This document shows, piece after piece, positions 9,883 to 52,978 of a DNA stretch of 64,000 nt (position 1 is the stretch's first letter; each line of letters begins with the position of its first letter). The DNA comes from a virus, in UHGV virus genome UHGV-0298424. The stretch is one strand, 5' to 3'. Made by a program: the position numbers and the translations under genes. Under the pieces are notes generated by a model that searched no databases, was not told the DNA's origin, and saw nothing but the letters and a program-made list of their open reading frames with translations.

Positions 9883-9953
9883 AATTCACTCCTAAAGAAT
9901 GTCTCACGTAGATAATATCTGTCTGACTTCTTTTTGAAATTGAGGTAGTAAGA

Positions 9954-19002: not shown

Positions 19003-19038
19003 TCTAATAACTCCAATGGTGTTACACCTGGATAATAT

Positions 19039-34895: not shown

Positions 34896-35306
34896 TTAAA
34901 TTTTAAGTTTATCCATAGCTACAACGATAGGTTTTTCCGAAGTGTCTAATATCCCTACCATCGGTACACCATTTTTGATTTCGAAGAACGGTTTGTTATT
35001 GCCAGAGCACAAACGTTTGTCGTTGTATTCGAGACGTTGTGCCTTCCACGTTTCGAGGTTGAGTACGGACATAGGGCTGTCGTAGCACCAGGCCCCACCC
35101 TGCTCAACGATGAACACGTATCTGCTACCTTTGTATTTAAACAGGCTCTTCGCCTGACAGTACAGGCCGTCAATTTCTGTACAGTAGAAATCGTCGGCAC
35201 TATTGACGTACTTAATTCCAGCTGGCAACTGTGTTATTTTTGCTGATACGTTAACAGAGAACAGAATAGCAATTGCAATGAGAAGAGTGTTGATGATAGT
35301 TTTCAT
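34896..35306 (-). CDS. small secreted protein 2
   Basis: signal peptide MKTIINTLLIAIAILFSVNVSA. Confidence 0.45.
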   Translation of the reverse strand: MKTIINTLLIAIAILFSVNVSAKITQLPAGIKYVNSADDFYCTEIDGLYCQAKSLFKYKGSRYVFIVEQGGAWCYDSPMSVLNLETWKAQRLEYNDKRLCSGNNKPFFEIKNGVPMVGILDTSEKPIVVAMDKLKI

Positions 35307-35316
35307 GATAAACTCC

Positions 35317-35802
35317 TTAGTATTTAGATTGTTCTACGTACTTCTTAACCAGATAACCGAATTCAGCAACGCCGATTTCGCCGAACCAAACCAGATAACC
35401 GGGGTCGATGTTGTAGTAATAACCGACGAGTTTCTTGGTGTGTGGGTTGTATAGCGTTACGATATATTCCCAGCCACAAGCGTTAGCTTTACAACCACCA
35501 CTTTCAATCCAGATTTTGTTGTTGATATTTACCGGATACATGTTACCGCCAGGGCCATCCATGTAACCTTTAGAGCCGAACATTCCATCCAGTCCCACCG
35601 GATCTAGTGTTTTATCAACAACACCTTTAAATGACTTATCGGTATCGTACAAGTCGTTGATGTTTGGACACGCATTTGGCTGACCTTCCCGAGCGTTCCC
35701 ATCGCAGGTAAGCAATTCGTCTACGGAGGCCGCATCTACAGTAGGTGTGGCACCGATAAACAAGAAAACCAGAAAGAACATCAGTGTATGTAAACGTTTC
35801 AT
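35317..35802 (-). CDS. small secreted protein 3
   Basis: signal peptide MKRLHTLMFFLVFLFIGATPTVDA. Confidence 0.45.
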   Translation of the reverse strand: MKRLHTLMFFLVFLFIGATPTVDAASVDELLTCDGNAREGQPNACPNINDLYDTDKSFKGVVDKTLDPVGLDGMFGSKGYMDGPGGNMYPVNINNKIWIESGGCKANACGWEYIVTLYNPHTKKLVGYYYNIDPGYLVWFGEIGVAEFGYLVKKYVEQSKY

Positions 35803-35820
35803 TGTGACTACTCCTTTAGA

Positions 35821-36213
35821 TTATTCAGCAGGACGATTTAAAGTAACACGGCCAATTAATTCGGCGTTATGAAAGAAGTCCACAGCGGTATAGTTACCAA
35901 CTGATAACGGATGTATGCTAACCGACATGACTTTTGGTTGTTCACAGGCGATATCGGTCAAACGTTGGTAGACTTGTGCACGGGTGTCAGCAATGAGTAA
36001 TCCTGTACATGTTTCACCACGTACTAAACGATAAACTTGCAGTTTACCGAAACTGCGCATTAACGTAGGTGTCTCATCCGGGTTGATAATCGGTGAGTCA
36101 GGAGCGGGTTCGTAATGGTTGACATCCGAACCGCCGAAAGCGTAAGTGCCAGTAATGCCGATTGCACAGAAAACAATGATAGTATAAAGTATAGTTCTAA
36201 TATTCATTTTCAC
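35821..36213 (-). CDS. small secreted protein 4
   Basis: signal peptide MKMNIRTILYTIIVFCAIGITGTYA. Confidence 0.45.
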   Translation of the reverse strand: MKMNIRTILYTIIVFCAIGITGTYAFGGSDVNHYEPAPDSPIINPDETPTLMRSFGKLQVYRLVRGETCTGLLIADTRAQVYQRLTDIACEQPKVMSVSIHPLSVGNYTAVDFFHNAELIGRVTLNRPAE

Positions 36214-36235
36214 GCACTCTAAAAAAGATTAATAC

Positions 36236-36697
36236 TTATTTGTTAGGACGGGTGTGTCCACAGTTCTGGAAGAAAGTTTCAGATAGACGTTCGCCTTCTA
36301 CGGTAAAGTTAGCGGCGTCATTACCATTGATACTCACGCTGAAATTTTTGGCATTACCGATAGCATTAACGAAAGCAACCCAAGCGAGTTCTGCTTTGTC
36401 ACTACCATCCACGGTAGGGATGTTATAGGTTTTGCCGTTTACGACAATATCCATCGTGTTATCTTCAGCGTTAGTTGCACCTACAGGTTCCCCGTAATAC
36501 CAAACCATGCGACCGTAAAATTTGCGATTCGCGGTTTCAGTGTCACAGTTGATAGACAGTCCGTTTCCGGTGGTGTCTTCGATTTCGTAAACTGCCTGAC
36601 CAGGGTTCTGTATTTGTTCCCAGCTGTTGATAGCGGCGTGTGCAGTATTGAATCCGAAAGTTAAAATGGTTACTAAGAACGCGATAAAAGTTTTCAT
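36236..36697 (-). CDS. small secreted protein 5
   Basis: start at ATG 36697 with AAGGAG SD gives signal peptide MKTFIAFLVTILTFGFNTAHA. Confidence 0.45.
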   Translation of the reverse strand: MKTFIAFLVTILTFGFNTAHAAINSWEQIQNPGQAVYEIEDTTGNGLSINCDTETANRKFYGRMVWYYGEPVGATNAEDNTMDIVVNGKTYNIPTVDGSDKAELAWVAFVNAIGNAKNFSVSINGNDAANFTVEGERLSETFFQNCGHTRPNK

Positions 36698-36743
36698 TGA
36701 AATGCTCCTTCGGGTTATGGGAAAGTTCCCACAAATCATGAAA

Positions 36744-37166
36744 TTAAATGAGAAAGTGGGCAACTCTTTTAATCTGTCTATAACTATCATCGATACCTCT
36801 TATTATTTCCAGACGTTCTTCTGAAGAAAGGCATTGGTTAATGTCTTCGTCAAGATTGAACAATGTCATGAGTTTTGCAATCGAAACTGCCAGGTTGTCC
36901 GATAGCTCGTTGTTTTTACGCCATTCTTCGTTACGGAAAATACAGATAAGGTCTTTCACCTGGTTTTCAGCGAGCGGTTTGGCTAACTGTGCGTCGCGCT
37001 GTTCGAGAAGGTATGCTTCGTTGGTAAGTAATTGTTTCAGGTCTTCTGGGTAAAGGGCAGCGCGAGTAACGATCAGTAATACAACAAACGGGTCTTTGAA
37101 CAATTCGTTTTTCATCTTTAGTTCTCCTAAAATGGTTTCGTTAAGTGAGAGTAACTGAACTCTCAC
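36744..37166 (-). CDS. hypothetical protein
   Basis: 140-aa ORF; conserved 21-bp motif and hairpin immediately upstream. Confidence 0.4.
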   Translation of the reverse strand: MRVQLLSLNETILGELKMKNELFKDPFVVLLIVTRAALYPEDLKQLLTNEAYLLEQRDAQLAKPLAENQVKDLICIFRNEEWRKNNELSDNLAVSIAKLMTLFNLDEDINQCLSSEERLEIIRGIDDSYRQIKRVAHFLI

Positions 37167-37190
37167 CTAAGTAATATATATCTGAAATTA
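37141..37190 (+). promoter_or_regulatory. hairpin plus conserved TAAGTAATATATATCTGAAAT motif (copy 1)
   Basis: GTGAGAGT...ACTCTCAC stem followed by the motif; near-identical element at 41520-41590. Confidence 0.35.
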
Positions 37191-37219: not shown

Positions 37220-37239
37220 GGTGGGGGTAAACCCCCACC
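37220..37239 (-). terminator. intrinsic terminator hairpin
   Basis: GGTGGGGGT-AAA-CCCCCACC preceded by AAAAAATAAAA. Confidence 0.55.
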
Positions 37240-37243
37240 GACG

Positions 37244-37822
37244 TTATACATCGAACCGATACTGCCGGGAGTTAATGAGGAACTCAGTATTCAGCTCAAT
37301 CCATTCGAGTAAATCCCCCAACGGTAATCGGTTTGGGTTTTCTAACTCGATAGATGCAACCGGATAAGAGTTTACTAATTCCGTAATCGCCTCAATGCCC
37401 TCTTGCGTTCCATCGTCTTCTAAGGTGATTGTAAACGGCATATCGGTACGTTCCGCATTAGGATTGTACAAACTGACTTTCGTTGCTTGCACAAACGCAG
37501 TCAGGTCGTCTCGCATAATGCGAATATCTGGCGCTAGAACTACCCAGAGATGTTGCCCTGGCTGGAGTTTACGTTTTGCGTAGTTTACGAAAGGACTTGC
37601 CGTCAAGTTATCTAAACCACAACAGATGTTACGTAAACGAATTCCGCGCGGATCTTTGTAATCCACGTCGAAAATCCCCACAGGTTCATTCGCTGCCCGC
37701 TTTATCAGAAAGGCTAATACCGTGTCCGCTCTTTCTGGTAAGGAAAGCTCTATTCCCTCAAGCTCCCCATCGACGAGATTTTCTAACCAAACGTCTTTTC
37801 GCATTTCTATTAATCGGTACAC
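37244..37822 (-). CDS. hypothetical protein
   Basis: 192-aa ORF; terminator 37220-37239 after stop. Confidence 0.4.
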   Translation of the reverse strand: MYRLIEMRKDVWLENLVDGELEGIELSLPERADTVLAFLIKRAANEPVGIFDVDYKDPRGIRLRNICCGLDNLTASPFVNYAKRKLQPGQHLWVVLAPDIRIMRDDLTAFVQATKVSLYNPNAERTDMPFTITLEDDGTQEGIEAITELVNSYPVASIELENPNRLPLGDLLEWIELNTEFLINSRQYRFDV

Positions 37823-37834
37823 GGTTCCACCTCA

Positions 37835-38608
37835 CTAATAATTAAGTTTTACATCGGCAATAAACAGCAACTGTTTACCGTGTTGCTGCACTTCTTTCCA
37901 ACCTAGTTTCATAGCAGCGTCAACAACATCTATCATGCTGTAACGAGACATCAACGCGGTTGATTTTGTTCCTGACATTAAGTAAAGCGGCTCGTTGGGG
38001 CAACGGTCGCGTGCATCAGGAAGTTCCCGAGAGACTGCTGAGCCTTCGGGTACGGTAACAACATGAATCACGGTAAATGGTCTTTTGTGGGTTAAATAAA
38101 TACGAAACCCAACGTGTTCAGACTCATGAAAGACTTTCTTTACAACCACATCTTTTAGTGTCGTCTGAACATCAATCCCAGGTAATATCGTGGATTCGCG
38201 AGAAACAAAACAACGACTATTTTCAACCATGGAGAAATAATTACGTATCGGTAAACTGGCGTTATGATCGCGCAGTTTTTTGCTCAGTAGATCGAAGTTC
38301 AGTTCTTTAACTTTCTCTAGCCATTCTTTGGCTTGTTGTATGTAATAACTACCAACGGTGCGATAAGTCAATACCTTGCCTGTGCTTACTTTCCAAAGTT
38401 TAACGCTTAGTGAATTCGGCTTATAGCGACGATACTCACCCCGCGTATAGTTGATGCGCTCGTAACGCTCTACATCGTCAACGGGCGCAGATTCGATCGA
38501 TTGTAATTGCAACGTACGATCTAATCTATCGGCGAATAGTAGTGATGTTAGCGGACCTTCGATCAAATACGGTTCGGTTTTAAAGATATCATCTAGATGG
38601 ATTTTCAT
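37835..38608 (-). CDS. hypothetical protein, QLLF-tail paralog family member 1
   Basis: N-terminus MKIHLDDIF and C-terminus GWKEVQQHGKQLLFIADV shared with three adjacent genes. Confidence 0.45.
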   Translation of the reverse strand: MKIHLDDIFKTEPYLIEGPLTSLLFADRLDRTLQLQSIESAPVDDVERYERINYTRGEYRRYKPNSLSVKLWKVSTGKVLTYRTVGSYYIQQAKEWLEKVKELNFDLLSKKLRDHNASLPIRNYFSMVENSRCFVSRESTILPGIDVQTTLKDVVVKKVFHESEHVGFRIYLTHKRPFTVIHVVTVPEGSAVSRELPDARDRCPNEPLYLMSGTKSTALMSRYSMIDVVDAAMKLGWKEVQQHGKQLLFIADVKLNY

Positions 38609-38630
38609 TTCTATTTCCTTCTTAACAAAA

Positions 38631-38649
38631 GCCGCGACTAAAGCGCGGC
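38631..38649 (-). terminator. intrinsic terminator hairpin
   Basis: GCCGCG-ACTAAAG-CGCGGC; T-rich tract on minus strand. Confidence 0.4.
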
Positions 38650-38675
38650 AGTTAGAGAAAGTCTATTTTTACTTA

Positions 38676-39827
38676 TTAGAGGTCAGCAACAAACAACAGC
38701 TGGCAGCCGTACTTTTGTACGTCCGCCCAACCGTAGTCTTTTCCGATTATAGGTAGATGTAAAAAATCCAGCTTCTCGTCTTTCGCTTTTAGTTTCGCCA
38801 TTAACGTATTGGACTCCTCAGCACTGAGCAGTAATGCGGGCTCTTTTTCAGTACGTCCTTCTGCGGTTGGGAAGAAATTGTAATAGCTGCGAGTAGGTAA
38901 ATCGACAGAAAAACTACGATTGCCTATTCTGGCGATGAACGCAACTCCTTCACAGTTAGCATCTACACTACACGACCATCCCGCCTCCGTTAAAAGGTCT
39001 TTTAACAGACACCACACTTTAAGTTGGTTCTTAGAAACTGTACGGTAAATAGCAAGATGTTCAGGAAGTAAATGTACGCCCATAACCACGTTTTCAGATT
39101 TCTCGTCAAGCAACTCTGGATGCTGTATCGGGAACAATAATTCAGTGATACCCACGTTATCAATTTTGTTAACAAAATCAGTTAATTCATCTTTTAAGGT
39201 ACACACGGATTTTTCTCCTTTGTCTTCAATAATCAGGTGGGGTTCGCCGCTAATTAAAATGTGGTAAACGAGATCGTCAGTAGAACGGTAAGTGAGCTTG
39301 ATTGCTTTATCACTTAATATTTCGTAGCGGAAGAAACTTTCGTACCAACTTGAGCCGAAATCGTTTTGTGTGAGTTCCTGCTCAACTTTGATGGTTTTTG
39401 CTTCAAAGCCGATTAACTCGCTTAATAACGCGAGTTCTTGTTTAGTTAAAATAGTTACACCGTGAAAGGGCACTTGTTCAAGCTGAAAACATAACTTAGT
39501 GACTTCACCATTTGGGAAGACCTTAAACATAATCTTCCGGTTGCTACTCTTTTCCCTAACAACAAGTTTACGGTAATTTAGTCCACAATTTGTGTAAGAC
39601 GTGAACTGGTAACCTTCAATTTCTTCATCGAAAGTACAGACATCGACAGGCGCGATAATCTCATTGTATTCACTAAGTACACAGCAGCCCAATTTATAAC
39701 CAAACAACGTATGTTGTAAAAAATAGTCGAGGGTTAAGCTTGGTAGTGGCCAAGCCCGATTATAGCATCTGTCCATCAGTTCTTTTAGGTACTTGGCATG
39801 TCTTGGTTTAGAAATAATATTTCGCAT
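38676..39827 (-). CDS. hypothetical protein, QLLF-tail paralog family member 2
   Basis: 383 aa; C-terminus FFPT...GWADVQKYGCQLLFVADL; appears to contain an internal duplication of the domain. Confidence 0.45.
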   Translation of the reverse strand: MRNIISKPRHAKYLKELMDRCYNRAWPLPSLTLDYFLQHTLFGYKLGCCVLSEYNEIIAPVDVCTFDEEIEGYQFTSYTNCGLNYRKLVVREKSSNRKIMFKVFPNGEVTKLCFQLEQVPFHGVTILTKQELALLSELIGFEAKTIKVEQELTQNDFGSSWYESFFRYEILSDKAIKLTYRSTDDLVYHILISGEPHLIIEDKGEKSVCTLKDELTDFVNKIDNVGITELLFPIQHPELLDEKSENVVMGVHLLPEHLAIYRTVSKNQLKVWCLLKDLLTEAGWSCSVDANCEGVAFIARIGNRSFSVDLPTRSYYNFFPTAEGRTEKEPALLLSAEESNTLMAKLKAKDEKLDFLHLPIIGKDYGWADVQKYGCQLLFVADL

Positions 39828-39859
39828 TTTTACTCTCCTTTAGGGGGTTTTTTCGTTAC

Positions 39860-40414
39860 TTAAGCAGGGCAAGCTAAGAACAACAACTGCTGACCGATTT
39901 TACGTACGGTATACCAACCGTGGGCTTTAGCGACCGCGATCAACGTTTCCCAGTCATCAACATCACATTGCTCGTTCCGAAGTTTTGTAAAGAGTGCTTC
40001 GGCTTCGTCTTGGTTTAATAACTTACCTGGATTATCAGGGGTGGTGCCAGAAGGGGTTGGAAAGAAATCGTATTGACGCGCTAAGAGAAAATCAACCAGA
40101 TACTTGGTGTTCTCTTTATAAACCAGCGTGGAAGTCTTCCCTTCGTGGAAGAAGCTGCCTGTTTTCCAAACGCTATCTTTCAGTAAGCTCTGAAGGTAAT
40201 CTGTAAAGCCCGTTCTAAATGGGATATGCGTTTTACGCGTGATGTTGCGACGCAGCGGGGTTTCCTCTACAGCTTGTACACTTACCCCTACTATCATCGC
40301 ACCTGGCTGGATAATGGTATTGGTCAGTACGGTATAAGGACGGACAAAGAAATGTTCGCCTACGCCTTTTTCAAGGGTTTGGATAATTTCATTTTTCAGT
40401 TCAGTTTGAAACAT
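39860..40414 (-). CDS. hypothetical protein, QLLF-tail paralog family member 3
   Basis: 184 aa; C-terminus FFPTPSG...HGWYTVRKIGQQLLFLA. Confidence 0.45.
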   Translation of the reverse strand: MFQTELKNEIIQTLEKGVGEHFFVRPYTVLTNTIIQPGAMIVGVSVQAVEETPLRRNITRKTHIPFRTGFTDYLQSLLKDSVWKTGSFFHEGKTSTLVYKENTKYLVDFLLARQYDFFPTPSGTTPDNPGKLLNQDEAEALFTKLRNEQCDVDDWETLIAVAKAHGWYTVRKIGQQLLFLACPA

Positions 40415-40445
40415 GGTATATTCTCCTTTTTTTCGGTTTTCTTAA

Positions 40446-41183
40446 TTACGCGGTTTTAATTAACAGCAGATAGTCCTTCGTAATCTCAGCACAACTCCAC
40501 CCTCTCATCGTGGCGATTTTACGAAGATCAATTTTCTCGTGATATTTCAATAAGGGATCGTCTGAGTTAATCTCAACCAGGTGGGTGGCTTTAGAAATCG
40601 TTTCCACATCTGGGATCTGTTTTGCTAAGTCGGATGCAATCAGTTCAATAACGCGGTAACCCTTTAACACAGAAACATAGATGCGCAAACCATATAGCGT
40701 GCCCTCGTCTTCTAATGGACAAAGATCGATGCCGGGTCCAAGCAGTGATAACTCGACGTTATCGGGAAGGTTTTCTGCATTTCGGAGTAACCCTATCCCA
40801 TTTCTAAACAGAGGGAAGTAAGAGAATAGTGGTGGTAAAGCCCAACCGTTCCCAATAAGCACATCATCGATACTAGTAGGCGTGTTCGCAAGAAGACGAA
40901 TGTGGTCAGCCACAACTTCAAGTTCGGCATCACTGATCAACTTATAGATTAACATGACACTGGTTTCGGTATTAATAACGAAGAAGACGCGGTTGGCGTA
41001 ACTGCCTATCACGTATTCGTCAATCATACAGTCGATAACGTCAGTGTCTGGATAATCTTCAGGTTTAATTGTTCCAGCATCGATTAACTTAGCAGGTTGC
41101 GATTGTTTTAATAGTTCGTTAACAACAGTAGAAGAAAGTTCTAAACTGGTGTTAGTAAAGATATCGTCTAATAATTCTCTCAT
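40446..41183 (-). CDS. hypothetical protein, QLLF-tail paralog family member 4
   Basis: N-terminus MRELLDDIF, C-terminus RGWSCAEITKDYLLLIKTA; first gene of the minus block. Confidence 0.45.
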   Translation of the reverse strand: MRELLDDIFTNTSLELSSTVVNELLKQSQPAKLIDAGTIKPEDYPDTDVIDCMIDEYVIGSYANRVFFVINTETSVMLIYKLISDAELEVVADHIRLLANTPTSIDDVLIGNGWALPPLFSYFPLFRNGIGLLRNAENLPDNVELSLLGPGIDLCPLEDEGTLYGLRIYVSVLKGYRVIELIASDLAKQIPDVETISKATHLVEINSDDPLLKYHEKIDLRKIATMRGWSCAEITKDYLLLIKTA

Positions 41184-41279
41184 GATTTACTCGCTAATCT
41201 TAATAAAGGGAAGTCTATTATTATGGATTGTAAAAGAGGTATAAGGAAGTCACTACGTTCCTCTGGGAAGAGTATGTCG

Positions 41280-41340
41280 GTATACTACGTATACCTCCGC
41301 TATTTATATCCGTATACATAATGCCCCCTACCCCCTACCG
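41280..41340. promoter_or_regulatory. cluster of GTATAC palindromes and CCCCTACC direct repeats
   Basis: three GTATAC hexamers within 40 bp (41280-41317) followed by CCCCCTACCCCCTACC; lies in the 420-bp divergent intergenic region. Confidence 0.3.
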
Positions 41341-41519
41341 GTATCCCGAGTAGCAGAATAAAGGGACAGACTGTAAAATTTTAGTACCTGTTATCGGAAG
41401 GTACTAAATGGAGTGTAGTCTTTAAGCCGTTTGTGCAGCTCATTGAGACTTTCTTTTTTTAGTAGACATGATCTGTCTCCCCAAATGGTTTAATCAATCC
41501 GTTTCGAATGAAACGTGTC

Positions 41520-41590
41520 CGTAGGGACTGAAGTGCCAGTTCAGTCCCTATTCACTTAAGTAATATATATCTGAAATCAATTCCGATCTA
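41520..41590 (+). promoter_or_regulatory. hairpin plus conserved TAAGTAATATATATCTGAAAT motif (copy 2)
   Basis: AGGGACTGAA-loop-TTCAGTCCCT stem followed by the motif, about 15 nt upstream of the first plus-strand structural gene. Confidence 0.4.
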
Positions 41591-41602: not shown

Positions 41603-42568
41603 ATGGAGAAATCCAGTGTTGATTTTTTCTCAATTGGTATCGTCGCGGAAGACAAACCCCGTGGTACAGATCGGGTAAAAGTGATACCAATTGAAACTAA
41701 TTTTGCTAACCCTACCGTGGTGCAATCTGTTTCTTCAGCAACTGAAAAGACACATGAAACATCTGGTGCAACAGATAACCTAACCATTAAGACGGGTAAC
41801 ACGATAACAGCAAAGTGGTGGAAGTTTAACTCCAACCGAATTAATTCCCCTGACGTTAAACGAGAAGATTACGTTATCTTGTTACGTTTGGGGAAAACCG
41901 ATATTTATTTTTGGATTGATCTGAACTTCGCTAACGTTAAGCGATTAGAGGATGCGGTTTACGCGTGGTCTGCTGACCCTGAAAACCAGATGGCGGATGA
42001 CCTGTCCAATGCGTATGTGTTGAATATCTCGACGATTGACAAACATATCACGCTAAGAACAAGTATGGTGAACGGTGAGAAAGCGGCGTGGTTATTTCAG
42101 TTTGATAATGCAAATGGCACGTGGCAGTGTGTTGACCACAAAGGGAATAAGTATTACATTAACTCGGTGGAAGACGATTTAGGTTTTGAGAATGCGATGC
42201 TCTCAAAAGTGAACATCAACAAAGAAGATGCGTTCATTTATTCAAAGCGTTCTATTAACCTGGAAACGAAAACGATTAATGAAAAATGCGAAGTTCGCAA
42301 TACGGAAGCAGCGAAATCCGTTACGTTTAAAACACAAACCTGGTTAACGGAAGCAGGGAGTTCGACAACATTTAAAACGCCGAACTTTAAACAAGAAGGG
42401 AAGGAAGCGATGTTCACCGGTAATCTGGAAGTCGCTAAGAACTTCAAATACGGTGGTACGGGCAAAGGCGTCGGTGTCTTTACGGTTAAAGATGCCGTTA
42501 TTTCTGGTATTACCTTTAGCGTTCACATTCACCAAGGTAAACATGGCCCGACATCACCTCCGCAATAA
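41603..42568 (+). CDS. hypothetical protein (possible baseplate/tail component)
   Basis: 321-aa ORF, first of the plus-strand structural block; AAGGAA SD. Confidence 0.45.
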   Translation: MEKSSVDFFSIGIVAEDKPRGTDRVKVIPIETNFANPTVVQSVSSATEKTHETSGATDNLTIKTGNTITAKWWKFNSNRINSPDVKREDYVILLRLGKTDIYFWIDLNFANVKRLEDAVYAWSADPENQMADDLSNAYVLNISTIDKHITLRTSMVNGEKAAWLFQFDNANGTWQCVDHKGNKYYINSVEDDLGFENAMLSKVNINKEDAFIYSKRSINLETKTINEKCEVRNTEAAKSVTFKTQTWLTEAGSSTTFKTPNFKQEGKEAMFTGNLEVAKNFKYGGTGKGVGVFTVKDAVISGITFSVHIHQGKHGPTSPPQ

Positions 42569-42774
42569 TTCCCCTTTTTCTTACGTTGTTTTTATATATT
42601 GTGACCTGACGTTGGTAAAACTTTTTATCAACACTTTTCTTAAACCCATCGTTTAGTTAAGCAGGCCACTTTTTTCGCGCACTCTACTCCTCCCTACGGG
42701 GAGGAGCTATCTTATGCTTCGGTTGTAATACACGTCGGTCTTAGACCACTAACCTTTTGAAATGGAGAGCTGTT

Positions 42775-42984
42775 ATGTCTATTAAAGAGTTCTCTTCTGC
42801 TGAGCATATTCCAGAAGAGTTTAAGAAAATCGGTAACGTTAGCGCTTTCGGCGATACCGTTGATCATGTAACTGGTAAACTGGCTGCTGAAGCCGAAAAA
42901 ATTGGCGGCGACGCATTCAAAGTTATAGGTATTTCCGGCAACAACAAACTGCACGGTAACGCGATTGTCTACAAAAAAGACTAA
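42775..42984 (+). CDS. DUF1471 (YdgH/BhsA/McbA-like) domain protein
   Basis: ATG 42775 after GGAGAG; KIGNVSAFGDT...LAAEAEKIGGDAFKVIGISGNNKLHGNAIVYKK resembles the enterobacterial DUF1471 fold; no signal peptide. Confidence 0.5.
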   Translation: MSIKEFSSAEHIPEEFKKIGNVSAFGDTVDHVTGKLAAEAEKIGGDAFKVIGISGNNKLHGNAIVYKKD

Positions 42985-44366: not shown

Positions 44367-47300
44367 ATGGCTGTCGTCTTAGACCCACACTTCAAAAAAC
44401 CGGGGAATAAAATAACCGGTGAAGCGGTCGCCGTCATTGGTACGAAATACCGAATGTTGGTACCTGCCCACGCCCCTTTTTTCACCACATCCCTGGTGGT
44501 CAAGAGCGGCGGCAAAATACTGACCTTAGGCGACGATTACGTTATTACACACCCGTACGAGACTGGTATGTTGCGCACAGCCTATCTCATTCACGGGATG
44601 ATTTGGATTGTTAATGACAAATACAAATCGAACTTTACTGTAGATTACCATGCTGTTGGTTGTGGCCAGGCTACTCAGCAGCAGATTACCGCAGAGCGCG
44701 AGCTTAATAAAGGTAAATACCCCTCCGCGTGTCAGTGGGACACCGTTATCGGAGACGTTTACTTTCCACCGGTCGATATCCAGTTCGATTGGGAGAATTG
44801 GAAAGGTGAACTGGAGCTAATGCAGGCCATTGCTGGGGTAGGCGATTCGTTAGGGGAAGTCGTGAGTCGTCTTAACCCAATCGCACGCAATACACTGGAT
44901 TTGGAATATCGTGCTAATAGCAAGGTTATCACTTCCGAGCAGTATGCTGCGTACGATAATAAAGGCGGTTTCACCTACAACACAGCTCGCCACCGTTATA
45001 GCCTGAGTTATAAAGCGACAACCTTTAACAACTATTCCCTGTCGGTGAAACACAGAATTCCTGCTATTCTGCCAGACATGACAAAGTTGAATCCGAACGA
45101 ACAGATCGATTGGATGCTCTGTTATGCCAACGGCGGTGCAAGTATTCTACGGTTACAGCTAAAACAGCGCAAAATCTCACTGGTCTTAACTGTCGCTATT
45201 GGCAGTGGTTCAACAAACTACGATTATACTTTAATCAACGGTTTAACTGACGATGAGTTAAAAAACGATATCGATTTTAGTGTAACCCGACAACCCGGAA
45301 ACGGCGTTTACGTAATCGTAGTAAAAACAAATAAACAGACCATGGATTATACGTTCAACGTCGATACGCCGCCTGATGAGTTCTCGGCAGGGTATTCGAA
45401 AACGGATGTAGCCAAATGGTTGAAGTCTAAAACGAACATTAACCTGAACTGGTATGCGGCTGAAAACGATTATGTTCAAATTCGTTCTTTACCCGGCGCG
45501 CCGGAGCCTGACGTCGATAACGATGTTTACCAGTTAATAGTTAAGTATCATCAGTTGGTTGAGCAGCTGTATCGTAATGCGCCTGCGCACGAACACGTTA
45601 CACGTAAGGACAACCCACACACAGATACGTGGGGTCCGATCCGTGCGTTAGAGTTGAACGGTATTGCGTCGGATGCAGCATTAGCTTACGGAAAAACGAA
45701 GCCGCAGTTAACGGATTATGTTAATGCTAAGTATCCAACACAAGCGACGCTGACAGCACAAAAGAAACTATTGCGCACGTCAGCTACGAAAACGGCTAAC
45801 GGAACTATTGGAACGCTGCCCGGTTTTACTTCGTTCACGACGGAAGTTGACCCGGTGTCAATGTCGAAATACGTGAGTCCTCGTTTTAGCGAAAGCTACG
45901 TTAGTAATGGTCACAGGTATCACGGTGCGCTTCGTTACACAGGAACGAAGAGTGGATTCGCCACTTCTTTTAATGCGGTACCTGCTAACCTGCAAGATAT
46001 TGACTTTATTGTTACCGGACGTAAAACAGCGTCTGGTAATGAAGCTGTCGGTACGGTTAGCCTACGTTTCTATCAGAAACCTGGTACTAACTCTGGAAAA
46101 TTTATCCAGCTTACAGGTGAAATTTCTGCGGGTAAAGTCGGCGTTAAGTTGGAACTGAACGGTTTTTCGAATCCCACACCGGAAGTTCAGTATCTTTCCC
46201 AAGCTCCTAATCCAGCAATACCGGATGGGGATTTTACGCTGCGTTTTCAACTGAAACGCACAGGGAACGTGTTTGATGTCGTTATTACCATAAACGGCAA
46301 GACATACAGTGCACGTGTTAACTTCACTAACATGGACGCTGCACTAGAAGCATTGGAGAATAGCCACCACTTTAAATCATTGATCAGTAATGTTGCTGAC
46401 AATGTCACTATTAGCTCGGGGAATAAAGGTAACACGGTTACCATTAAGAAAGCGCCCGACGTCGTTGACGGGACCAGTTTAGGTGCCCAGTTTGTCGTTG
46501 ACCCGAAATCCATTAAGTTTATTGGACAAGGTTCAACCGAGGTTAATGCGGGGAATAACCCTGTAACGTTTCAAGCAGGTACTAACCAACTTATATTGTA
46601 TCCTGATGATCGTGGGTTACAGTGGCGTGGTAAGAAACTCTTAGACCCCACTACCGTGGCTCCGTATCTGCCAGGCAATACCGCGGGCGGTACGGGATTA
46701 TTCTACGGTACATCTACAACCACGGTAGAACTTACCGGTAGCGGGATAAAAGCATCGCCGTTCGTAGCGACTTTTATTCTCCCTACCGCGACCGATACAA
46801 CAGCCCTGGCAGCTTGGCAGTTGACCGATGAGTTTGGTACCGCTGAAAACCTTGCAGCAACGCCAGCACTGATTGAAAAACTCGATGCGGAGTTCACCGG
46901 TAAATTAGTTGCGGTTAAATCGTACATTAACGACATGCAACTTACCAGCTCGGTCACTATCGACAAAATTACCTTTGGTTTAGGTAACGTTGCGAATACA
47001 CCCGATGTCAATTTACCGATTTCTACAGCACAACGTGCGGAGTTAGATAAATACTCGCCTAAAGTTCACCAACACCCGTTTACCGCTTTTGGTACTGGGA
47101 ACGCAACCACAGCGAAACGTGGTCTGATTAAATTTGGTCTGGATGTGGATGATGCGACTTTAGCACTCGATGGGAGTGTGGTAATGGCGCAGACTTCCCA
47201 GATTGAAAAATTGGAAAATGCTGTCGGTGGCGTTGACTCGGGTGCTCGCGTTGACATTATTCGTTTCGGCAAGTCTGGTGACGACTTAATTAACGTTACG

Positions 47301-48689
47301 GTTAAAGACAAAATTCTGGCTATGCTCCCCGCTTCAACGTACTTTGTTGGTGGTGAGACGTATGACGTACCGTTAATGTCGGTTAACGTCACTGAACGTT
47401 TCCCGAATCCGAAAACGTTGATCTACGCAGGAATTTTTGTTGATATTGTTGACAACAAAGCGAAGTATGTTATCCACGACAGCTACAATCAGGCTGAAAC
47501 GGATACCATGACGCGCGTGGGAAGACTCGTTGTCAATGAGCTTTCCGAAGTGGACGTAGTGGAATTGCGTAACGTGACACGATTAGGCGAATTCCACGAG
47601 CTGAAAGACCACATCGCTAATGACAACGCACACATTCAACGTTCTGCTTCGCGCGCAGTATTGGGGTTAAGTGATTTAACAGTAGGTGCACCTTGCTGGG
47701 CTTCTGGACTCCAGGCAGTAGTGCGTGGTGAAGCAGATTGGCGTTATGTTGTTCGTGGACAGTATAAAGCATTAGACGGGGTGAAATACGACCAGATCGC
47801 ATCAAAGTGGATTTTCGATGCGAAAGGGGTAAGTGACAACGTTCACGGGTTTATTCACAACTTATTCCCGACTTTCAAAAACGCAGGAATGCGGGTAAGT
47901 TGGGAAACAGAAAGCAACGCAAAAACCGGAACAGTGTTAGAAACTGTTTTAGGTTGTTGGAAGAACACCGACGGCGAGTTTATGCGGTTGTCATTACTTA
48001 TCACTCGCGGTTATCGTTTAACTGACAGTAACGGTGAATATTGTTACGCAGGGTTCGGTTTGAACTTCGGTAGCGGGAAATCGGTAGTGGTAGGTTTCAC
48101 ACCAACGAAGCGTGTTACGCCTGCACCGTGGAGTTCATTACGACCTGACGTAACGTTTACCCACACCCGTGGTGCAAACAACGCAATAACGTTTAATGCA
48201 TCGCTGACTTTAGCTGGCACTGTGTATACTATCGTGGTGTTTTTATCCGCGACAGATAAATACGTAAGCTGTACGGCGGCAGGGGGAACTACGCAGAAAA
48301 TCCCATTAGCCGACCGTTTAACCGGGTTCAATATCGAACCTATCGTTAATGATCCGTATACCCCTATTTACTACGGTTTAGGGGGACTTTATGAGGATGA
48401 GGTTCGTGCCAACATCCGCTCTACAGCAGACAGCGCAACTGCGAACAAAGTCTACGGTACGTTGTTGGACTATGTTAGCAACTATTCCTCATTAAATCGA
48501 GTACGCGTCATGGAATTGTCCGGTGTCAGCTCAGACCCCGAAACGCTTAATGCGTTAGTGGCAACTGAATTTAATAACAACCTGGCAGATTACGCTGCGT
48601 TACCGATACCTCCTTATCTTAACAAGGAGCGCGTAATGTCGTTTATCGACACCGACAATAAAGTGCAGGCGGTAATCATTCGCGATTAA
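44367..48689 (+). CDS. tail fibre protein (1440 aa)
   Basis: TAGGAG SD; N-terminal P-x-x-PFF...G-DY-x-x domain shared with the next three genes; KITFGLGNVANTPDVNLPIS fibre-type repeat. Confidence 0.65.
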   Translation: MAVVLDPHFKKPGNKITGEAVAVIGTKYRMLVPAHAPFFTTSLVVKSGGKILTLGDDYVITHPYETGMLRTAYLIHGMIWIVNDKYKSNFTVDYHAVGCGQATQQQITAERELNKGKYPSACQWDTVIGDVYFPPVDIQFDWENWKGELELMQAIAGVGDSLGEVVSRLNPIARNTLDLEYRANSKVITSEQYAAYDNKGGFTYNTARHRYSLSYKATTFNNYSLSVKHRIPAILPDMTKLNPNEQIDWMLCYANGGASILRLQLKQRKISLVLTVAIGSGSTNYDYTLINGLTDDELKNDIDFSVTRQPGNGVYVIVVKTNKQTMDYTFNVDTPPDEFSAGYSKTDVAKWLKSKTNINLNWYAAENDYVQIRSLPGAPEPDVDNDVYQLIVKYHQLVEQLYRNAPAHEHVTRKDNPHTDTWGPIRALELNGIASDAALAYGKTKPQLTDYVNAKYPTQATLTAQKKLLRTSATKTANGTIGTLPGFTSFTTEVDPVSMSKYVSPRFSESYVSNGHRYHGALRYTGTKSGFATSFNAVPANLQDIDFIVTGRKTASGNEAVGTVSLRFYQKPGTNSGKFIQLTGEISAGKVGVKLELNGFSNPTPEVQYLSQAPNPAIPDGDFTLRFQLKRTGNVFDVVITINGKTYSARVNFTNMDAALEALENSHHFKSLISNVADNVTISSGNKGNTVTIKKAPDVVDGTSLGAQFVVDPKSIKFIGQGSTEVNAGNNPVTFQAGTNQLILYPDDRGLQWRGKKLLDPTTVAPYLPGNTAGGTGLFYGTSTTTVELTGSGIKASPFVATFILPTATDTTALAAWQLTDEFGTAENLAATPALIEKLDAEFTGKLVAVKSYINDMQLTSSVTIDKITFGLGNVANTPDVNLPISTAQRAELDKYSPKVHQHPFTAFGTGNATTAKRGLIKFGLDVDDATLALDGSVVMAQTSQIEKLENAVGGVDSGARVDIIRFGKSGDDLINVTVKDKILAMLPASTYFVGGETYDVPLMSVNVTERFPNPKTLIYAGIFVDIVDNKAKYVIHDSYNQAETDTMTRVGRLVVNELSEVDVVELRNVTRLGEFHELKDHIANDNAHIQRSASRAVLGLSDLTVGAPCWASGLQAVVRGEADWRYVVRGQYKALDGVKYDQIASKWIFDAKGVSDNVHGFIHNLFPTFKNAGMRVSWETESNAKTGTVLETVLGCWKNTDGEFMRLSLLITRGYRLTDSNGEYCYAGFGLNFGSGKSVVVGFTPTKRVTPAPWSSLRPDVTFTHTRGANNAITFNASLTLAGTVYTIVVFLSATDKYVSCTAAGGTTQKIPLADRLTGFNIEPIVNDPYTPIYYGLGGLYEDEVRANIRSTADSATANKVYGTLLDYVSNYSSLNRVRVMELSGVSSDPETLNALVATEFNNNLADYAALPIPPYLNKERVMSFIDTDNKVQAVIIRD

Positions 48690-48702
48690 GGAGAATTTTT
48701 TG

Positions 48703-51700
48703 ATGAAAGCGTATCCTTACGATCCTCGGGGGACGAAAACCGAGAATCACTTCTTAGAGGAGCGTATCATCGGGTCAGAAAACAACAACGATCGGGTGGT
48801 GATTTTAGACCATCGCCCGTTCTTTGAAGATTTAGTCGTCAGACAACCAGGTTCAACCACCCCACTGAGTCGTGGGGTGGACTACGAACTGCAATATCAG
48901 CTGACGGAACTGGATGACTCGGTAGCAGCCAACGTGTATTGTGGGGTACACCTTATCAACCCTTCCATCAAAGGCATCGTAACCTTTGAAGGACAAATGC
49001 TCGGCGGTACGTTCTACGACCCGTTTGTTGATATTCTCGATGAGCTGGTGAAATATTTGAATAACCCAGTCAGCGCTGACTGGTTGTTATTAGAAGGCAG
49101 ACCGTCGTTATACCCGGCTACGCCTGCGGCAACGTCTTGGGCGGATTTGCTAAACAAAAAATATTTAGCGTCGGCAGTCCACGATGTTGAATTGAAAACC
49201 GATGACGCTAACCAGTTAATTAAAGATAAATTAGCCGAAGTTAAAGCGTTAGTCGCCGCGCTGGGTAAAGAAATCGAGACATTTAACTACCCGGCACACA
49301 TCGCGGAAACCAACCCGCACCAAACCACTTCTGCACAGATTAACGCACATCCTGTTAACTTGAAAACACCCGACACCTTTATGGCGTACGGGTTAAAGTT
49401 GAAAGCATTGACGGATGAGCTGAAAGCGTTTCGTTTACCACAGTCAGTTATTGACACGTATATCTCCCACTGGATTTCTTCAGAAGTACGGGGTGTGTTT
49501 AACTGTACGGTGTCAGGAAACCGTGCACAGTTCCGCTCAAAAAACGGTGAGTCAGAAATCATTTTTGCGAATGATGGCTTTACGTTAAAATCCAACGGTT
49601 CTGTAGTGTTAGCGGTAGGGCATCTGGAAGGAACGGGTGCAGGACGTTACATTAACTGGCGTGCTGGTAAAAACATCCTACGTATCGAGTCAACAGGCGA
49701 TGCTTTAGGGATGAACAAACTCACCCTAAACGGTAACCCGTTACTGACCACCACAGCATTGATGGAATACCAACAAGATCCTGATGCTGGCGGGAGCGGT
49801 GGCGGTGACCCCGACGACTCAAAGGTGTACATCGAAGGCCGTAATGGGATTAGCTTCACCGGTAAAGGCTCTCGGACCGATCCTATCGTGGGTACTATCG
49901 ACCCGACGAAAGCGACAACCACTGAAAAAGGTGTTGTTAAGCTTAAAACTGGTAAAGGTACAGAAATCGTTGGGGTTGCAGCAACTCCGGCTTCGTTAGC
50001 GCCATATGCGACCGACCTATCGGGGTATGTGGCTAAAACGACCATGATTAACGGTAAGCCAATGAATGACGGCTCCAGGACAATCACGAAAGCTGACCTG
50101 GGGTTAGGGCAAGCGGATAATACCGCAGATCTTGACAAACCGTTGTCAACCAAGTTAACTGAGGCGGTTAGCGGTCTAGCAGATGTGGGCCATCATCACG
50201 ATTGGTCGGAGTTAGGTATTTATAAAGCTTCTCAATCTGTTTACGGTATTGGTCGTTATGCAACTAACCAGAACGGTTTGGTTGAAAACCGTGCAGTGGT
50301 ACCGAACATCCTAAAAGAGCTTTCGGCACGTTTAAGTGTGGTCGCTGCGGCAATTGCAAATGCGAAAGAAGGAACAGTCACGGATTTCGCTGCTGTAAAA
50401 GGCGCAGACTGGCGATTTAATAGCCAGGGTACGGCAATCTCCGTTCAGGATTTGAAATATTTCTATTTGCTGGACGGCATGAAAGGTGACAGTACCGTTA
50501 CCGGTGCGATTGACCTGCAAACCACTCCGATGTTTAACTGGTTCTCACCGAACAACCAACTTGAGCTGACTTGGCCTACGGGTAAGGTGAGTAAAGGTAC
50601 CGGGATTAGTTGGGATGGAATTGTTGATCCCCCAACAATGGGGTTTCAGTCAGTTCCGGTAGGTAAAAGCGCCACCCAGATGGGCGTTCAGTCCGTTGTA
50701 TCGGTACTGGCTAAAACGCGCGTCAAAGCTCGTCAGAAAAGGCTGTTTGTTTATGCCGCTGGCGGTGGGACAATAACCGTTTATGTAAATGGTGTTGTAG
50801 GCGCTACTGGTGCGTCGCCATTGTTAATGAACTATGGAACGTCTCCAGATGTTGAAAACTACACAATTGCTGTTAAAGCAGAGTGTAGTGACACGGCTAA
50901 ATCTGCAGCGGTACAGTTCGAAGTTTACGATGGTGACTACCCCGTTTATTTCAGTGGTCCTGAAACGCGTGTAGAGCTTCTCCAGGAGTTTGTCACAACG
51001 CATGTAGGTATTCGTCATTATTTGTACGTTAACATGCTCACAGGCTCTCTGTATTCGCGTGCTGAACCAGTTCAAGGATTTGAGGTCGATCCAGAACGCG
51101 GATATATCGGTTATGTTGATATCGTTCCTGGTCAGTCTTACGCGAATAAAACCGTGGGATTTGAAACCACGTTTGATTTCGGGAAAAGTGCGGAAGTTAG
51201 CGAGCATAATAGTATTCGTAAGGCACACGGTCTCAACGCTGCGGACTGGTCACTGACGGATAACCCACGGTTGCCGTTATTAAACCGTGCTATTGCCGAA
51301 CCAAGAGCGTGTATCTTTAGGAAACCGTTAGCAACCGCTACAGGGGATGTTTTCCATCTTGTCAGTCGTGGTCTTTATACTTACGCACACAACCAAAACG
51401 TGAAGTCGAGTCTTCAATACGTTGTGATACCTGAAGGTGCTACGCCGTATTGTTGGTTTACACCATTTAACCCGAAAGAAAACAACGCACCGACATTCGA
51501 AGGCTCGTTTGCGTTCGATGTTGACGATGTTGGTGGAACGCAAGCCCTTGCTGCTGCGCCGGATTTGGTTCTATGCACGTCAACGCAAGGTAGCAGCGTT
51601 AAACGTCGCTATCTGCGCATTGACCTAACTACCAAAACCTGTAAGTTGGGGATTGGTTCCCGTTCAGATTCTGCTGTTACGGATATTCCGTTAGTGATGG

Positions 51701-52884: not shown

Positions 52885-52946
52885 GACAGACTGCCTGCGG
52901 GCAGTTGTCTGTCCGTAGGTAACCCCTCCCTGTAATGGGGAGGGGT
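52884..52946 (+). terminator. tandem hairpins after the 1393-aa fibre gene
   Basis: GGACAGACTGCC...GGCAGTTGTCTGTCC then ACCCCTCCC-TGTAAT-GGGGAGGGGT followed by ATTTTATTT. Confidence 0.5.
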
Positions 52947-52978
52947 ATCCATTTTATTTAAAAGTAGGAGTCTTTACG

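What the first reader, a model, noticed from the sequence alone, without database searches (positions are those of the whole stretch)
37835..41183. Four-gene tandem paralog array with conserved termini
Four adjacent minus-strand genes encode proteins of different lengths that share an N-terminal M-x-x-x-LDDIF start (clear in two) and a C-terminal GW-x-x-V-x-x-x-G-x-QLLF-x-A motif. The 383-aa member appears to carry an internal duplication. Such arrays at the head of an early block are typical of diversifying host-takeover or anti-defence families.
Basis: seen in the sequence. Interest (0 to 1): 0.5.

Follow-up and report, generated by a model that had tools for sequence, protein, structure and literature searches.

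The report
Early paralog gene array, jumbo phage
Four neighbouring genes of a giant Salmonella/E. coli phage are diverged copies of one phage-specific protein family of unknown function; they sit first in an early operon and evolve unusually fast, a pattern common in phage accessory genes.

Summary
The four minus-strand genes are real: D245 at 40446-41183, C184 at 39860-40414, B383 at 38676-39827 and A257 at 37835-38608. A, B and C are clearly homologous (profile-profile E 1e-10 to 1e-12). D is a probable but degenerate member. The claimed internal duplication in B is not supported. B is a unique, independently recombining N-terminal half fused to a C184-like domain.

The shared core ends in a ~65-residue C-terminal module. 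An exhaustive search of 1.84 billion proteins found it in only 25 clusters, all from enterobacterial jumbo phages and none annotated. SPN3US (gp175), CR5, phiEaH2 and others carry one copy in the same slot beside the baseplate gene. This phage, probably the proposed 'Bapsvirus', carries three or four.

The array follows a perfect match to the conserved early promoter of phiKZ-like phages. It ends, after one unrelated gene, at a strong terminator. Protein identity between relatives is 42-93% against 91-96% for the flanks, and dN/dS is 0.11-0.36 against 0.01-0.11.

Function is unknown: no family or solved-structure match was found. The best inference is early accessory host-interaction proteins. 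A conserved leader carrying a covarying hairpin precedes the array.

The parts
41553..41576 (-). Early (virion-RNA-polymerase type) promoter motif TTTCAGATATATATTACTTAAGTG at the head of the operon
   Evidence: Zero mismatches to TTTCARRYAKATATTAYYWARGTG, with 0.02 matches expected by chance. The pattern was derived from published early-promoter consensi of phiKZ, 201phi2-1, OBP and N1M2 (PMC7058600 Table 2; PMC7598289). The motif region is conserved at DNA level in Seoulvirus and Erskinevirus phages.
41523..41549 (-). Stem-loop directly after the promoter motif (AGGGACTGAA...TTCAGTCCCT)
   Evidence: The stem is kept in five relatives, with a compensatory A:T to G:C change. The coordinates were read.
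41440..41469 (-). Remnant of a small leader ORF (9 codons here; 23-47 aa in relatives)
   Evidence: A 2-nt deletion in an A-run truncates it in the window. The ORF is poorly conserved among relatives.
41238..41378 (-). Conserved non-coding leader block in front of the first array gene
   Evidence: Nearly invariant in seven relatives while the genes on either side vary. Recognisable in SPN3US, SPAsTU, pEa_SNUABM_29 and phiEaH2, and partly in CR5 and Phobos. No Rfam match.
41279..41295 (-). Covarying hairpin GGTATAC-GTA-GTATACC inside the leader block
   Evidence: The same 6-7 bp hairpin forms with different stems: SPN3US GGUAUCC, SPAsTU GGUACUC, pEa29 GGUACCC, phiEaH2 GGUGAC.
40446..41183 (-). 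D245: first array gene, probable degenerate family member, pI 4.5
   Evidence: dN/dS 0.13-0.36. Absent from the Enterobacter ludwigii relative.
39860..40414 (-). C184: minimal family member, consisting of the shared ~180-aa domain only
   Evidence: Aligns over its whole length with B residues 208-382. AlphaFold2 mean pLDDT 78.8.
38676..39827 (-). B383: unique N-terminal ~200 aa fused to a C184-like domain
   Evidence: The two halves have different histories. In relative L006 the gene is split into 149 + 214 aa ORFs.
38631..38649 (-). Terminator-like hairpin in the 67-nt gap between B and A
   Evidence: GCCGCGCTTTAGTCGCGGC followed by TTTTGTT. This is a consensus match only.
37835..38608 (-). 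A257: last family member and positional counterpart of SPN3US gp175 / CR5_165, pI 9.1
   Evidence: Its module matches phrog_26772 (E 2.5e-9), phrog_33648 and phrog_24489. tblastn hits 47 jumbo-phage records. hhalign to the Derbicusvirus-type and Seoulvirus-type groups gives 98%.
37244..37822 (-). E192: unrelated fifth gene of the operon, ortholog of SPN3US_0177
   Evidence: phrog_20879, E 1.8e-32. HMM match to SPN3US RefSeq gp089, E 6.6e-23. No similarity to A-D.
37220..37239 (-). Intrinsic terminator closing the operon
   Evidence: GGTGGGGGTTTACCCCCACC followed by TTTTATTTTT: 8 pairs, 7 of them G-C.
37164..37187 (-). Second consensus early promoter, starting the next transcription unit
   Evidence: Zero mismatches. 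41-60 nt here are 85-100% identical in Erwinia phiEaH2-like and SPN3US-like phages.

Best explanation
The four genes are a lineage-specific expansion (one copy expanded to three or four) of a protein family confined to enterobacterial jumbo phages. Its single-copy representatives are SPN3US gp175, CR5_165 and phiEaH2 gp097.

Shown:
- Each protein ends in a ~65-residue strand-helix-helix-hairpin module, with consensus IPDxGDRSxNEPxYLMS...GWxDVQxxGxQLLFI.
- In A, B and C the module is preceded by a ~110-residue alpha/beta subdomain.
- N-terminal additions differ completely between members.
- The genes are packed 12-67 nt apart. They lie behind a consensus early promoter and a conserved structured leader. 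They end, together with one unrelated gene, at a strong terminator.
- They are under purifying selection, yet change several times faster than the flanking genes. They exchange halves by recombination and vary in copy number.

Inferred:
- They are transcribed at the very start of infection by the virion RNA polymerase.
- They act in the host cytoplasm as dispensable accessory proteins that deal with variable host factors (takeover or counter-defence).
- The conserved C-terminal module provides a common contact with an unknown partner.
- The variable N-terminal parts provide specificity.
For: Family and architecture:
- BLASTP and hhalign support.
- An exhaustive HMMER search found 25 clusters in 1.84e9 proteins. 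Outside the array's own orthologs, only the last ~60-90 residues match, and always at the extreme C-terminus.
- Stand-alone ~100-aa versions of the module exist.
- Only the four array genes carry the module, both in the window and in a closed 221.9-kb relative.

Synteny: the slot beside the baseplate gene holds one family member of 223-423 aa in six other phages.

Early expression: the promoter motif is present here and in CR5 (PMC7058600, PMC7598289). The terminator closes the unit.

Rapid change:
- Protein identity 42-93% against 91-96% for the two structural flanks.
- dN/dS 0.11-0.36 against 0.01-0.11.
- B is a mosaic of two halves with different histories.
- D is missing in one relative, and B is split in another.

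Fold: confident models were obtained for C184 and for the C half of B. Fold relatives are found only among uncharacterised jumbo-phage proteins, several per phage.

Context: a 2026 review states that only one anti-defence protein (Tad1) has been described in jumbo phages and that many more are expected (PMC13282480).
Against: - Early timing is inferred from a promoter motif, not from transcript data for this phage.
- dN/dS below 1 does not demonstrate an arms race. Fast change could equally reflect relaxed constraint.
- The polar residues of the module are not invariant in B, C and D, so a single shared binding site is uncertain.
- D's membership is statistically weak.
Confidence: 0.5

Rival explanations
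1. The proteins are nucleic-acid-binding regulators. In this reading the C-terminal module is a winged-helix-like domain and the alpha/beta subdomain is a PAS-like sensor. They would control phage early-to-middle gene expression, or bind the conserved leader of their own operon.
Confidence: 0.15
2. The proteins are virion-associated or injected. In this reading their conserved termini serve as packaging or assembly signals, by analogy with the hyperplastic internal-protein locus of T4-like phages, or they are accessory baseplate components.
For: The array abuts the baseplate assembly gene and a block of virion structural genes. A and D share a short N-terminal motif that recalls a capsid-targeting sequence; that resemblance is my recollection of T4 biology and was not tested. 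The lineage encodes an S80 prohead protease.
Against: The genes are transcribed divergently from the structural block, behind an early-promoter motif. The N-terminal motif is present in only two of the four. In the C184 model the N-terminal helix is part of a confidently folded domain. The conserved element is a folded 65-aa C-terminal domain rather than a short cleavable peptide. The SPN3US virion papers I searched do not mention SPN3US gp174-176; every 'gp175' in them refers to another phage's protein. That is absence of evidence only.
Confidence: 0.1
3. The similarity is a chance resemblance, or the genes are decaying duplicates with no function.
For: D's C-terminal motif is degenerate. B is interrupted in one relative. 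A small leader ORF is frameshifted in the window.
Against: Profile E-values reach 1e-10 to 1e-12, and the negative control is clean. dN/dS is 0.11-0.36 in every gene. Exact copies occur on 40-72 contigs each, and the >=90%-identity clusters hold up to 191 members. The module is conserved across several phage genera.
Confidence: 0.03

Closest known systems
SPN3US gp175 (SPN3US_0175 = RefSeq ACQ60_gp091), Cronobacter phage CR5_165, Erwinia phage phiEaH2 gp097, Phobos gp176; PHROGs 33648, 26772, 24489, 18480 (all 'unknown function')
   Same: They share the C-terminal module (HMM E 1e-8 to 1e-12). Homology extends over the C-terminal 140-290 columns at profile level. They occupy the same slot between the baseplate assembly gene and the following genes. 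CR5 has the same early-promoter motif upstream.
   Different: Those phages carry one copy of 223-423 aa. This phage carries four in tandem (184-383 aa), with N-terminal parts that do not match theirs at sequence level. None has a known function.
Stand-alone ~100-aa module proteins of other jumbo phages (e.g. P0072, P0095; Klebsiella phage FBKp24 gp041)
   Same: They contain the same module, with the consensus IPDxxERTxNDPxYLMSSNDVLKL...GWxEVKLxGKQLLFI.
   Different: They have no N-terminal domain and carry a variable insert inside the module. They lie elsewhere in the genome: one sits in a tRNA cluster and one lies ~1.7 kb from a Tad2-like gene.
Hyperplastic internal-protein (IP) locus of T4-like phages (recalled from the literature, not tested here)
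   Same: Both are tandem, rapidly diversifying genes that share a short conserved terminus while their bodies are unrelated, and they differ between close relatives. IPI* is an anti-restriction protein.
   Different: The T4 signal is an N-terminal ~10-residue capsid-targeting peptide that is cleaved off, and the proteins are packaged. Here the conserved part is a folded C-terminal domain, expression appears to be early, and there is no evidence of packaging.
Winged-helix fold
   Different: The scores are not significant. There is no basic surface and no sequence-family match.

Membership tests
SPN3US gp175-like jumbo-phage family (phrog_26772 / 33648 / 24489) | C-terminal ~65-aa module detected by family profiles | tested here: met
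   A matches at E 2.5e-9 and B at E 3.9e-6 to phrog_26772. C has no direct PHROG match and joins through B (hhalign E 3.4e-12). HMMs of A, B and C all match CR5_165 and SPN3US gp175 (E 7e-12 to 8e-4).
SPN3US gp175-like jumbo-phage family (phrog_26772 / 33648 / 24489) | Membership of D245 specifically | tested here: inconclusive
   No PHROG match. hhalign gives A-D 70% (E 3.9e-5), while B-D and C-D are not significant. A module HMM built without D scores 3-7.9 bits, against a best shuffle of 6.8 bits in 2000. Only GW and LL of the motif are retained.
SPN3US gp175-like jumbo-phage family (phrog_26772 / 33648 / 24489) | Module placed at the extreme C-terminus | tested here: met
   In all four window proteins and in all 25 clusters the module lies at the C-terminus: in most proteins the match ends 0-6 residues from the end.
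SPN3US gp175-like jumbo-phage family (phrog_26772 / 33648 / 24489) | Syntenic slot divergent from the baseplate assembly gene | tested here: met
   The window baseplate gene is at 41603-42568 (phrog_3216). The same arrangement is seen in SPN3US, CR5, phiEaH2, Phobos, pEa_SNUABM_29 and SPAsTU.
Early genes of phiKZ-like (Chimalliviridae) phages | Consensus early promoter (AT-rich ...TATATTAC... element) upstream of the operon | tested here: met
   Zero-mismatch match at 41553-41576. Consensi taken from PMC7058600 and PMC7598289. Only five sites with <=2 mismatches occur in a 221.9-kb relative.
Early genes of phiKZ-like (Chimalliviridae) phages | Transcripts present in the first minutes of infection, made by the virion RNA polymerase | not testable with these tools
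   No transcript data for this phage or for SPN3US gp175 were found in the held literature.
Protein with an internal tandem duplication (claim about B383) | Significant similarity between two parts of the same protein | tested here: not met
   BLASTP of the halves gives best E 0.42. hhalign of the N half against the C half gives E 0.26-0.36. The AlphaFold2 model of the N half is low-confidence (pLDDT 32-64), so a purely structural repeat cannot be judged.
Winged-helix DNA-binding proteins | Significant fold match and a basic recognition surface | tested here: not met
Known anti-defence / defence-associated families (Pfam incl. Tad2-like, PADLOC, NCBIfam) | Profile match above threshold | tested here: not met
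   Nothing at or near the curated cut-offs.
T4-type internal proteins | N-terminal capsid-targeting sequence shared by all members, cleavage by the prohead protease, presence in virions | not tested
   Only A and D share the N-terminal motif. Cleavage and packaging cannot be tested with these tools.

The most novel reading that the evidence does not exclude
The locus is a cassette system. A conserved, structured leader RNA and an early promoter drive interchangeable genes. The shared C-terminal module of these genes docks variable N-terminal sensor or decoy domains onto one conserved machine of the infected cell. Candidates for that machine are the early-infection vesicle, the nuclear shell, or the host translation or defence apparatus. 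On this reading the array is a previously undescribed modular counter-defence family specific to nucleus-forming jumbo phages.
Probability: 0.15. Interest if true: 0.7.

Novelty: new member of a known kind. Interest (0 to 1): 0.35.

Why it matters
Nucleus-forming jumbo phages are candidates for therapy. Yet a 2026 review (PMC13282480) notes that only one anti-defence protein, Tad1, has been described in jumbo phages. This locus is a compact, well-delimited candidate for follow-up. It is an early operon whose genes are the most variable in their neighbourhood and differ in number between close relatives. All share one small module that could be used as bait to find a common partner.

Hundreds of natural variants exist in public assemblies of Salmonella, Shigella and E. 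coli isolates (the proposed genus Bapsvirus, PMC12768965). Site-wise selection tests are therefore immediately possible, and host-range correlation could be attempted if host genotype or phenotype data are added.

If the proteins turn out to be ordinary accessory genes of no measurable effect, the result is still useful. It defines an uncatalogued domain family and corrects the duplication claim.

Tried and rejected
- Internal duplication of B: BLASTP and hhalign of its halves were negative.
- Homology of the fifth gene, E192, to the family: negative, so it was used as a control.
- Pfam, PHROG function, NCBIfam and PADLOC on the four proteins and on ten relatives: nothing beyond PHROGs of unknown function.
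- PDB sequence profile search with the module: nothing.
- Foldseek against the PDB with the B model: no match at E <= 0.001.
- AFDB50 fold search: the library was unavailable.
- Rfam on the window and, permissively, on the leader: nothing.
- Distant blastn of the leader against phage records: no match. The cross-genus similarity was instead found by reading the syntenic intergenic regions.
- Pattern scan of IMG/VR for the hairpin flanks (CGGAGGT...ACCGACAT): it returned only what look like chance hits in unrelated contigs and was abandoned.
- Formal pair counting on the hairpin alignment: not run, because loop-length differences misalign the inner pairs. The individual folds are the evidence used.
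- Literature searches for SPN3US gp175: every hit referred to other phages' gp175.
- Sigma-70 promoters: not enriched in the region, 11 found against 9.1 expected.
Full report
**What is there**

The region holds four minus-strand ORFs at exactly the reported limits:
- D245 at 40446-41183
- C184 at 39860-40414
- B383 at 38676-39827
- A257 at 37835-38608

They are separated by 31, 32 and 67 nt. Twelve nucleotides further on comes a fifth gene, E192 (37244-37822). A strong intrinsic terminator follows at 37220-37239. The B-A gap also holds a weaker terminator-like hairpin at 38631-38649. Sigma-70-like sites are not enriched in the region.

**Is the similarity real?**

Pairwise BLASTP gives:
- B-C: 31% over 108 aa, E 9e-13
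- A-B: 35% over 65 aa, E 2e-8
- A-C: E 1e-4
- A-D: 18% over 131 aa, E 3e-4

I collected orthologs from related contigs and compared profiles:
- B-C: 97.6%, E 3.4e-12, with B 208-382 aligned to C 3-182, which is all of C
- A-B: 96.9%, E 1.7e-10
- A-C: 62%
- A-D: 70%, E 3.9e-5, colinear from residue 1 to the end
- B-D and C-D: not significant
- E192 against all four: E 0.35-0.92, a clean negative control

A module HMM built without any D sequence scores all seven D orthologs at 3-8 bits, in register. The best of 2000 shuffles scored 6.8 bits. The N-terminal LDDIF is identical and in register in A and D and is kept in most of their orthologs. I conclude that A, B and C are certain paralogs and that D is a probable, degenerate one.

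**The duplication claim**

Neither BLASTP nor hhalign finds any similarity between the N and C halves of B. B is a two-part protein: a unique ~200-residue N half joined to a C184-like domain. The two halves have separate histories:
- Window against P0029: 82-89% identity in the N half, 44-61% in the C half.
- L005 against P0029: 27-39% in the N half, 87-94% in the C half.

In one relative B is split into 149 and 214 aa ORFs. The AlphaFold2 model of the N half is of low confidence, so a purely structural repeat cannot be judged.

**How wide is the family?**

I ran an exhaustive HMMER search of 1.84 billion representative proteins with the shared-domain profile. It found only 25 clusters at E <= 0.001. 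Outside the array's own orthologs, only the last ~60-90 residues match. The matching stretch always lies at the extreme C-terminus, in proteins of 72-356 aa. The module consensus is IPDxGDRSxNEPxYLMS ... GWxDVQxxGxQLLFI.

A word-indexed search adds many stand-alone versions of 90-140 aa on 225-270 kb contigs. tblastn finds the module in 47 phage records, all jumbo phages of Salmonella, Erwinia, Cronobacter, Klebsiella, Escherichia and Proteus.

At profile level, homology to the Derbicusvirus-type and Seoulvirus-type proteins extends well beyond the module. Those alignments were made with a permissive setting, so their lengths are upper limits.

**Synteny and copy number**

In six other phages the slot divergent from the baseplate assembly gene holds one family member:

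| Phage | Protein | Length (aa) |
|---|---|---|
| SPN3US | gp175 | 412 |
| pEa_SNUABM_29 | 00258 | 423 |
| SPAsTU | 00266 | 333 |
| phiEaH2 | gp097 | 223 |
| CR5 | CR5_165 | 364 |
| Phobos | gp176 | 319 |

Their N-terminal parts do not match those of A-D at sequence level. E192 is the ortholog of SPN3US_0177. A, the gene next to E192, is therefore the positional counterpart of gp175.

In relatives of the window phage the array has four genes. The exception is an Enterobacter ludwigii element, where the leader joins directly to the C-type gene and D is absent. In a closed 221.9-kb relative the module occurs nowhere else in the genome. The same holds for the window.

**Expression signals**

Megablast of the region against phage records matched only a 41-60 nt non-coding stretch, 85-100% identical in Erwinia and Salmonella jumbo phages. 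That stretch contains TTTCAGATATATATTACTTAGGTG. A second copy lies at 41553-41576, upstream of D.

Published early-promoter consensi of phiKZ-like phages fit both copies without mismatch:
- phiKZ: TATATTAC
- 201phi2-1: ...TTTRARR.BTATATTAC...GTG
- N1M2 and OBP: TTTCARRYAKATATTATYWAAGTG

Such motifs have been verified as early promoters used by the virion RNA polymerase wherever transcripts were mapped (PMC7598289). CR5 has the same motif about 80 nt upstream of CR5_165. SPN3US has a degenerate version (18 of 26 positions, by my own count) directly upstream of gp175. A 221.9-kb relative holds only five sites with two or fewer mismatches. The array's position at the head of an early unit is therefore well supported by sequence, but it has not been measured.

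**Rate and mode of evolution**

Between the window and four relatives, protein identity is 42-93% for D, C, B and A, and 91-96% for the baseplate gene and its neighbour. dN/dS is 0.11-0.36 for the array against 0.01-0.11 for the flanks.

The genes are therefore constrained, and so functional, but they evolve several-fold faster than their neighbours. Gene-wide positive selection is not shown. Exact copies of the four proteins occur on 40-72 contigs each, and the >=90%-identity clusters have up to 191 members.

**Structure and function**

AlphaFold2 gives a usable model of C184 (mean pLDDT 78.8) and of the C half of B (pLDDT 63-95 in 10-residue blocks over residues 211-383). The architecture has two parts:
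- an N-terminal helix plus a helix-and-sheet subdomain (residues 1-113 of C184);
- the module, in the order strand, helix, helix, hairpin (residues 130-180).

The module is near neutral, and the whole proteins range from pI 4.5 to 9.1. The module's polar consensus residues are not kept in B, C and D. This argues against a catalytic site or a basic DNA-binding surface. No Pfam, NCBIfam, PADLOC or PDB sequence match exists.

**Interpretation**

Five observations fit accessory proteins that meet variable host factors early in infection:
- an early position in the transcription programme;
- a dispensable-looking slot;
- variable copy number;
- domain shuffling;
- restriction to one group of phages.

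On this reading the constant module supplies a shared contact and the variable parts supply specificity. This is an inference, and I give the whole statement 0.5. The regulator reading (0.15) and the packaged-protein reading (0.1) are not excluded. Chance similarity or decay is essentially excluded.

**The phage**

Relatives are 222-227 kb contigs in Salmonella, Shigella, E. coli and Enterobacter assemblies. They include two closed circular 'plasmids'. They show gene-order conservation with SPN3US and CR5, which both belong to Chimalliviridae, and they encode an S80 prohead protease.

This matches the proposed genus 'Bapsvirus': 247 genomes of about 226 kb in those hosts, syntenic with Seoulvirus, thought to persist in a carrier-like state (PMC12768965). 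I did not verify the assignment by a genome-wide comparison.

**A by-product: the leader**

Between the promoter and D lie three elements:
- a 5' stem-loop with a compensatory change among relatives;
- a small, poorly conserved ORF that is frameshifted in the window;
- a ~140-nt block (41238-41378) that is almost invariant in seven relatives.

The block is recognisable in Seoulvirus and Erskinevirus phages. Its central hairpin keeps 6-7 pairs with five different stem sequences. CR5 and Phobos keep the flanks but lack the hairpin. In them the consensus promoter lies downstream of the block rather than upstream.

Whether the block acts as RNA, as a second promoter or as a protein-binding site is open.

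Noticed in passing
window 41238-41378 (-), hairpin 41279-41295: A ~140-nt non-coding block in front of the array is almost invariant in seven relatives and recognisable in SPN3US, SPAsTU, pEa_SNUABM_29 and phiEaH2. Its central hairpin keeps 6-7 pairs with five different stem sequences. There is no Rfam match. CR5 and Phobos lack the hairpin and have the early promoter downstream of the block instead of upstream.
   Followed up: partly
window 37164-37187 (-) and 41553-41576 (-); weaker 9905-9928 (-), 19025-19048 (-): Two perfect and two 3-mismatch copies of the phiKZ-type early-promoter consensus lie on the minus strand. Each perfect copy is followed at once by a stem-loop. The 41-60 nt around the 37164 copy are 85-100% identical in Erwinia and Salmonella jumbo phages that otherwise do not align at DNA level.
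   Followed up: partly
window 41440-41469 (-); L006 6368-6511: A small leader ORF (23-47 aa in relatives, beginning MST(E/K)KK) is cut to 9 codons in the window by a 2-nt deletion in an A-run.
   Followed up: partly
window 34896-36790 (-): Four consecutive small proteins downstream of the second early promoter have signal-peptide-like N-termini (e.g. MKTIINTLLIAIAILFSVNVSA, MKRLHTLMFFLVFLFIGATPTVDA). They have no Pfam match here. Genes at the corresponding place in relatives are tagged PF27224 (YfjT).
   Followed up: partly
window 36744-37166 (-): The listed GTG start of this ORF overlaps the promoter. The likely true start is the ATG at 37115, behind a TAGGAG Shine-Dalgarno sequence, giving 123 aa (phrog_27024, unknown function).
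   Followed up: no
window 42757-42984 (+): A small gene with a YdgH/BhsA/McbA-like (DUF1471) domain (E 1.7e-9) sits between structural genes. It is conserved at this place in SPN3US, phiEaH2 and relatives. This domain family is typical of enterobacterial stress and biofilm proteins.
   Followed up: no
window 44367-58165 (+): Three consecutive giant virion structural proteins (1440, 1394 and 1728 aa) cross-match each other's PHROGs (7557, 8078, 7449, 2163). They form a second paralog set next to the array.
   Followed up: no
NZ_CP173450.1 (E. coli 98232, 221,873 bp) and NZ_CP134650.1 (Enterobacter ludwigii, 222,441 bp): Close relatives of the window phage are deposited as closed circular 'plasmids' and occur as 222-227 kb contigs in many Salmonella, Shigella and E. 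coli assemblies. This fits the proposed genus Bapsvirus and the carrier-like state described in PMC12768965.
   Followed up: partly
L139 5575-5960 (E. ludwigii element); L006 8001-9152: Structural variants of the array exist: D is absent in the E. ludwigii element (three genes), and B is split into 149 + 214 aa ORFs in L006.
   Followed up: yes
L008 6001-6300 (260-kb E. coli contig); L016 3456-3815 (Klebsiella phage FBKp24): Stand-alone ~100-120 aa versions of the module occur in other jumbo phages. One lies ~1.7 kb from a Tad2-like (anti-Thoeris family) gene, and one sits inside a tRNA cluster.
   Followed up: no
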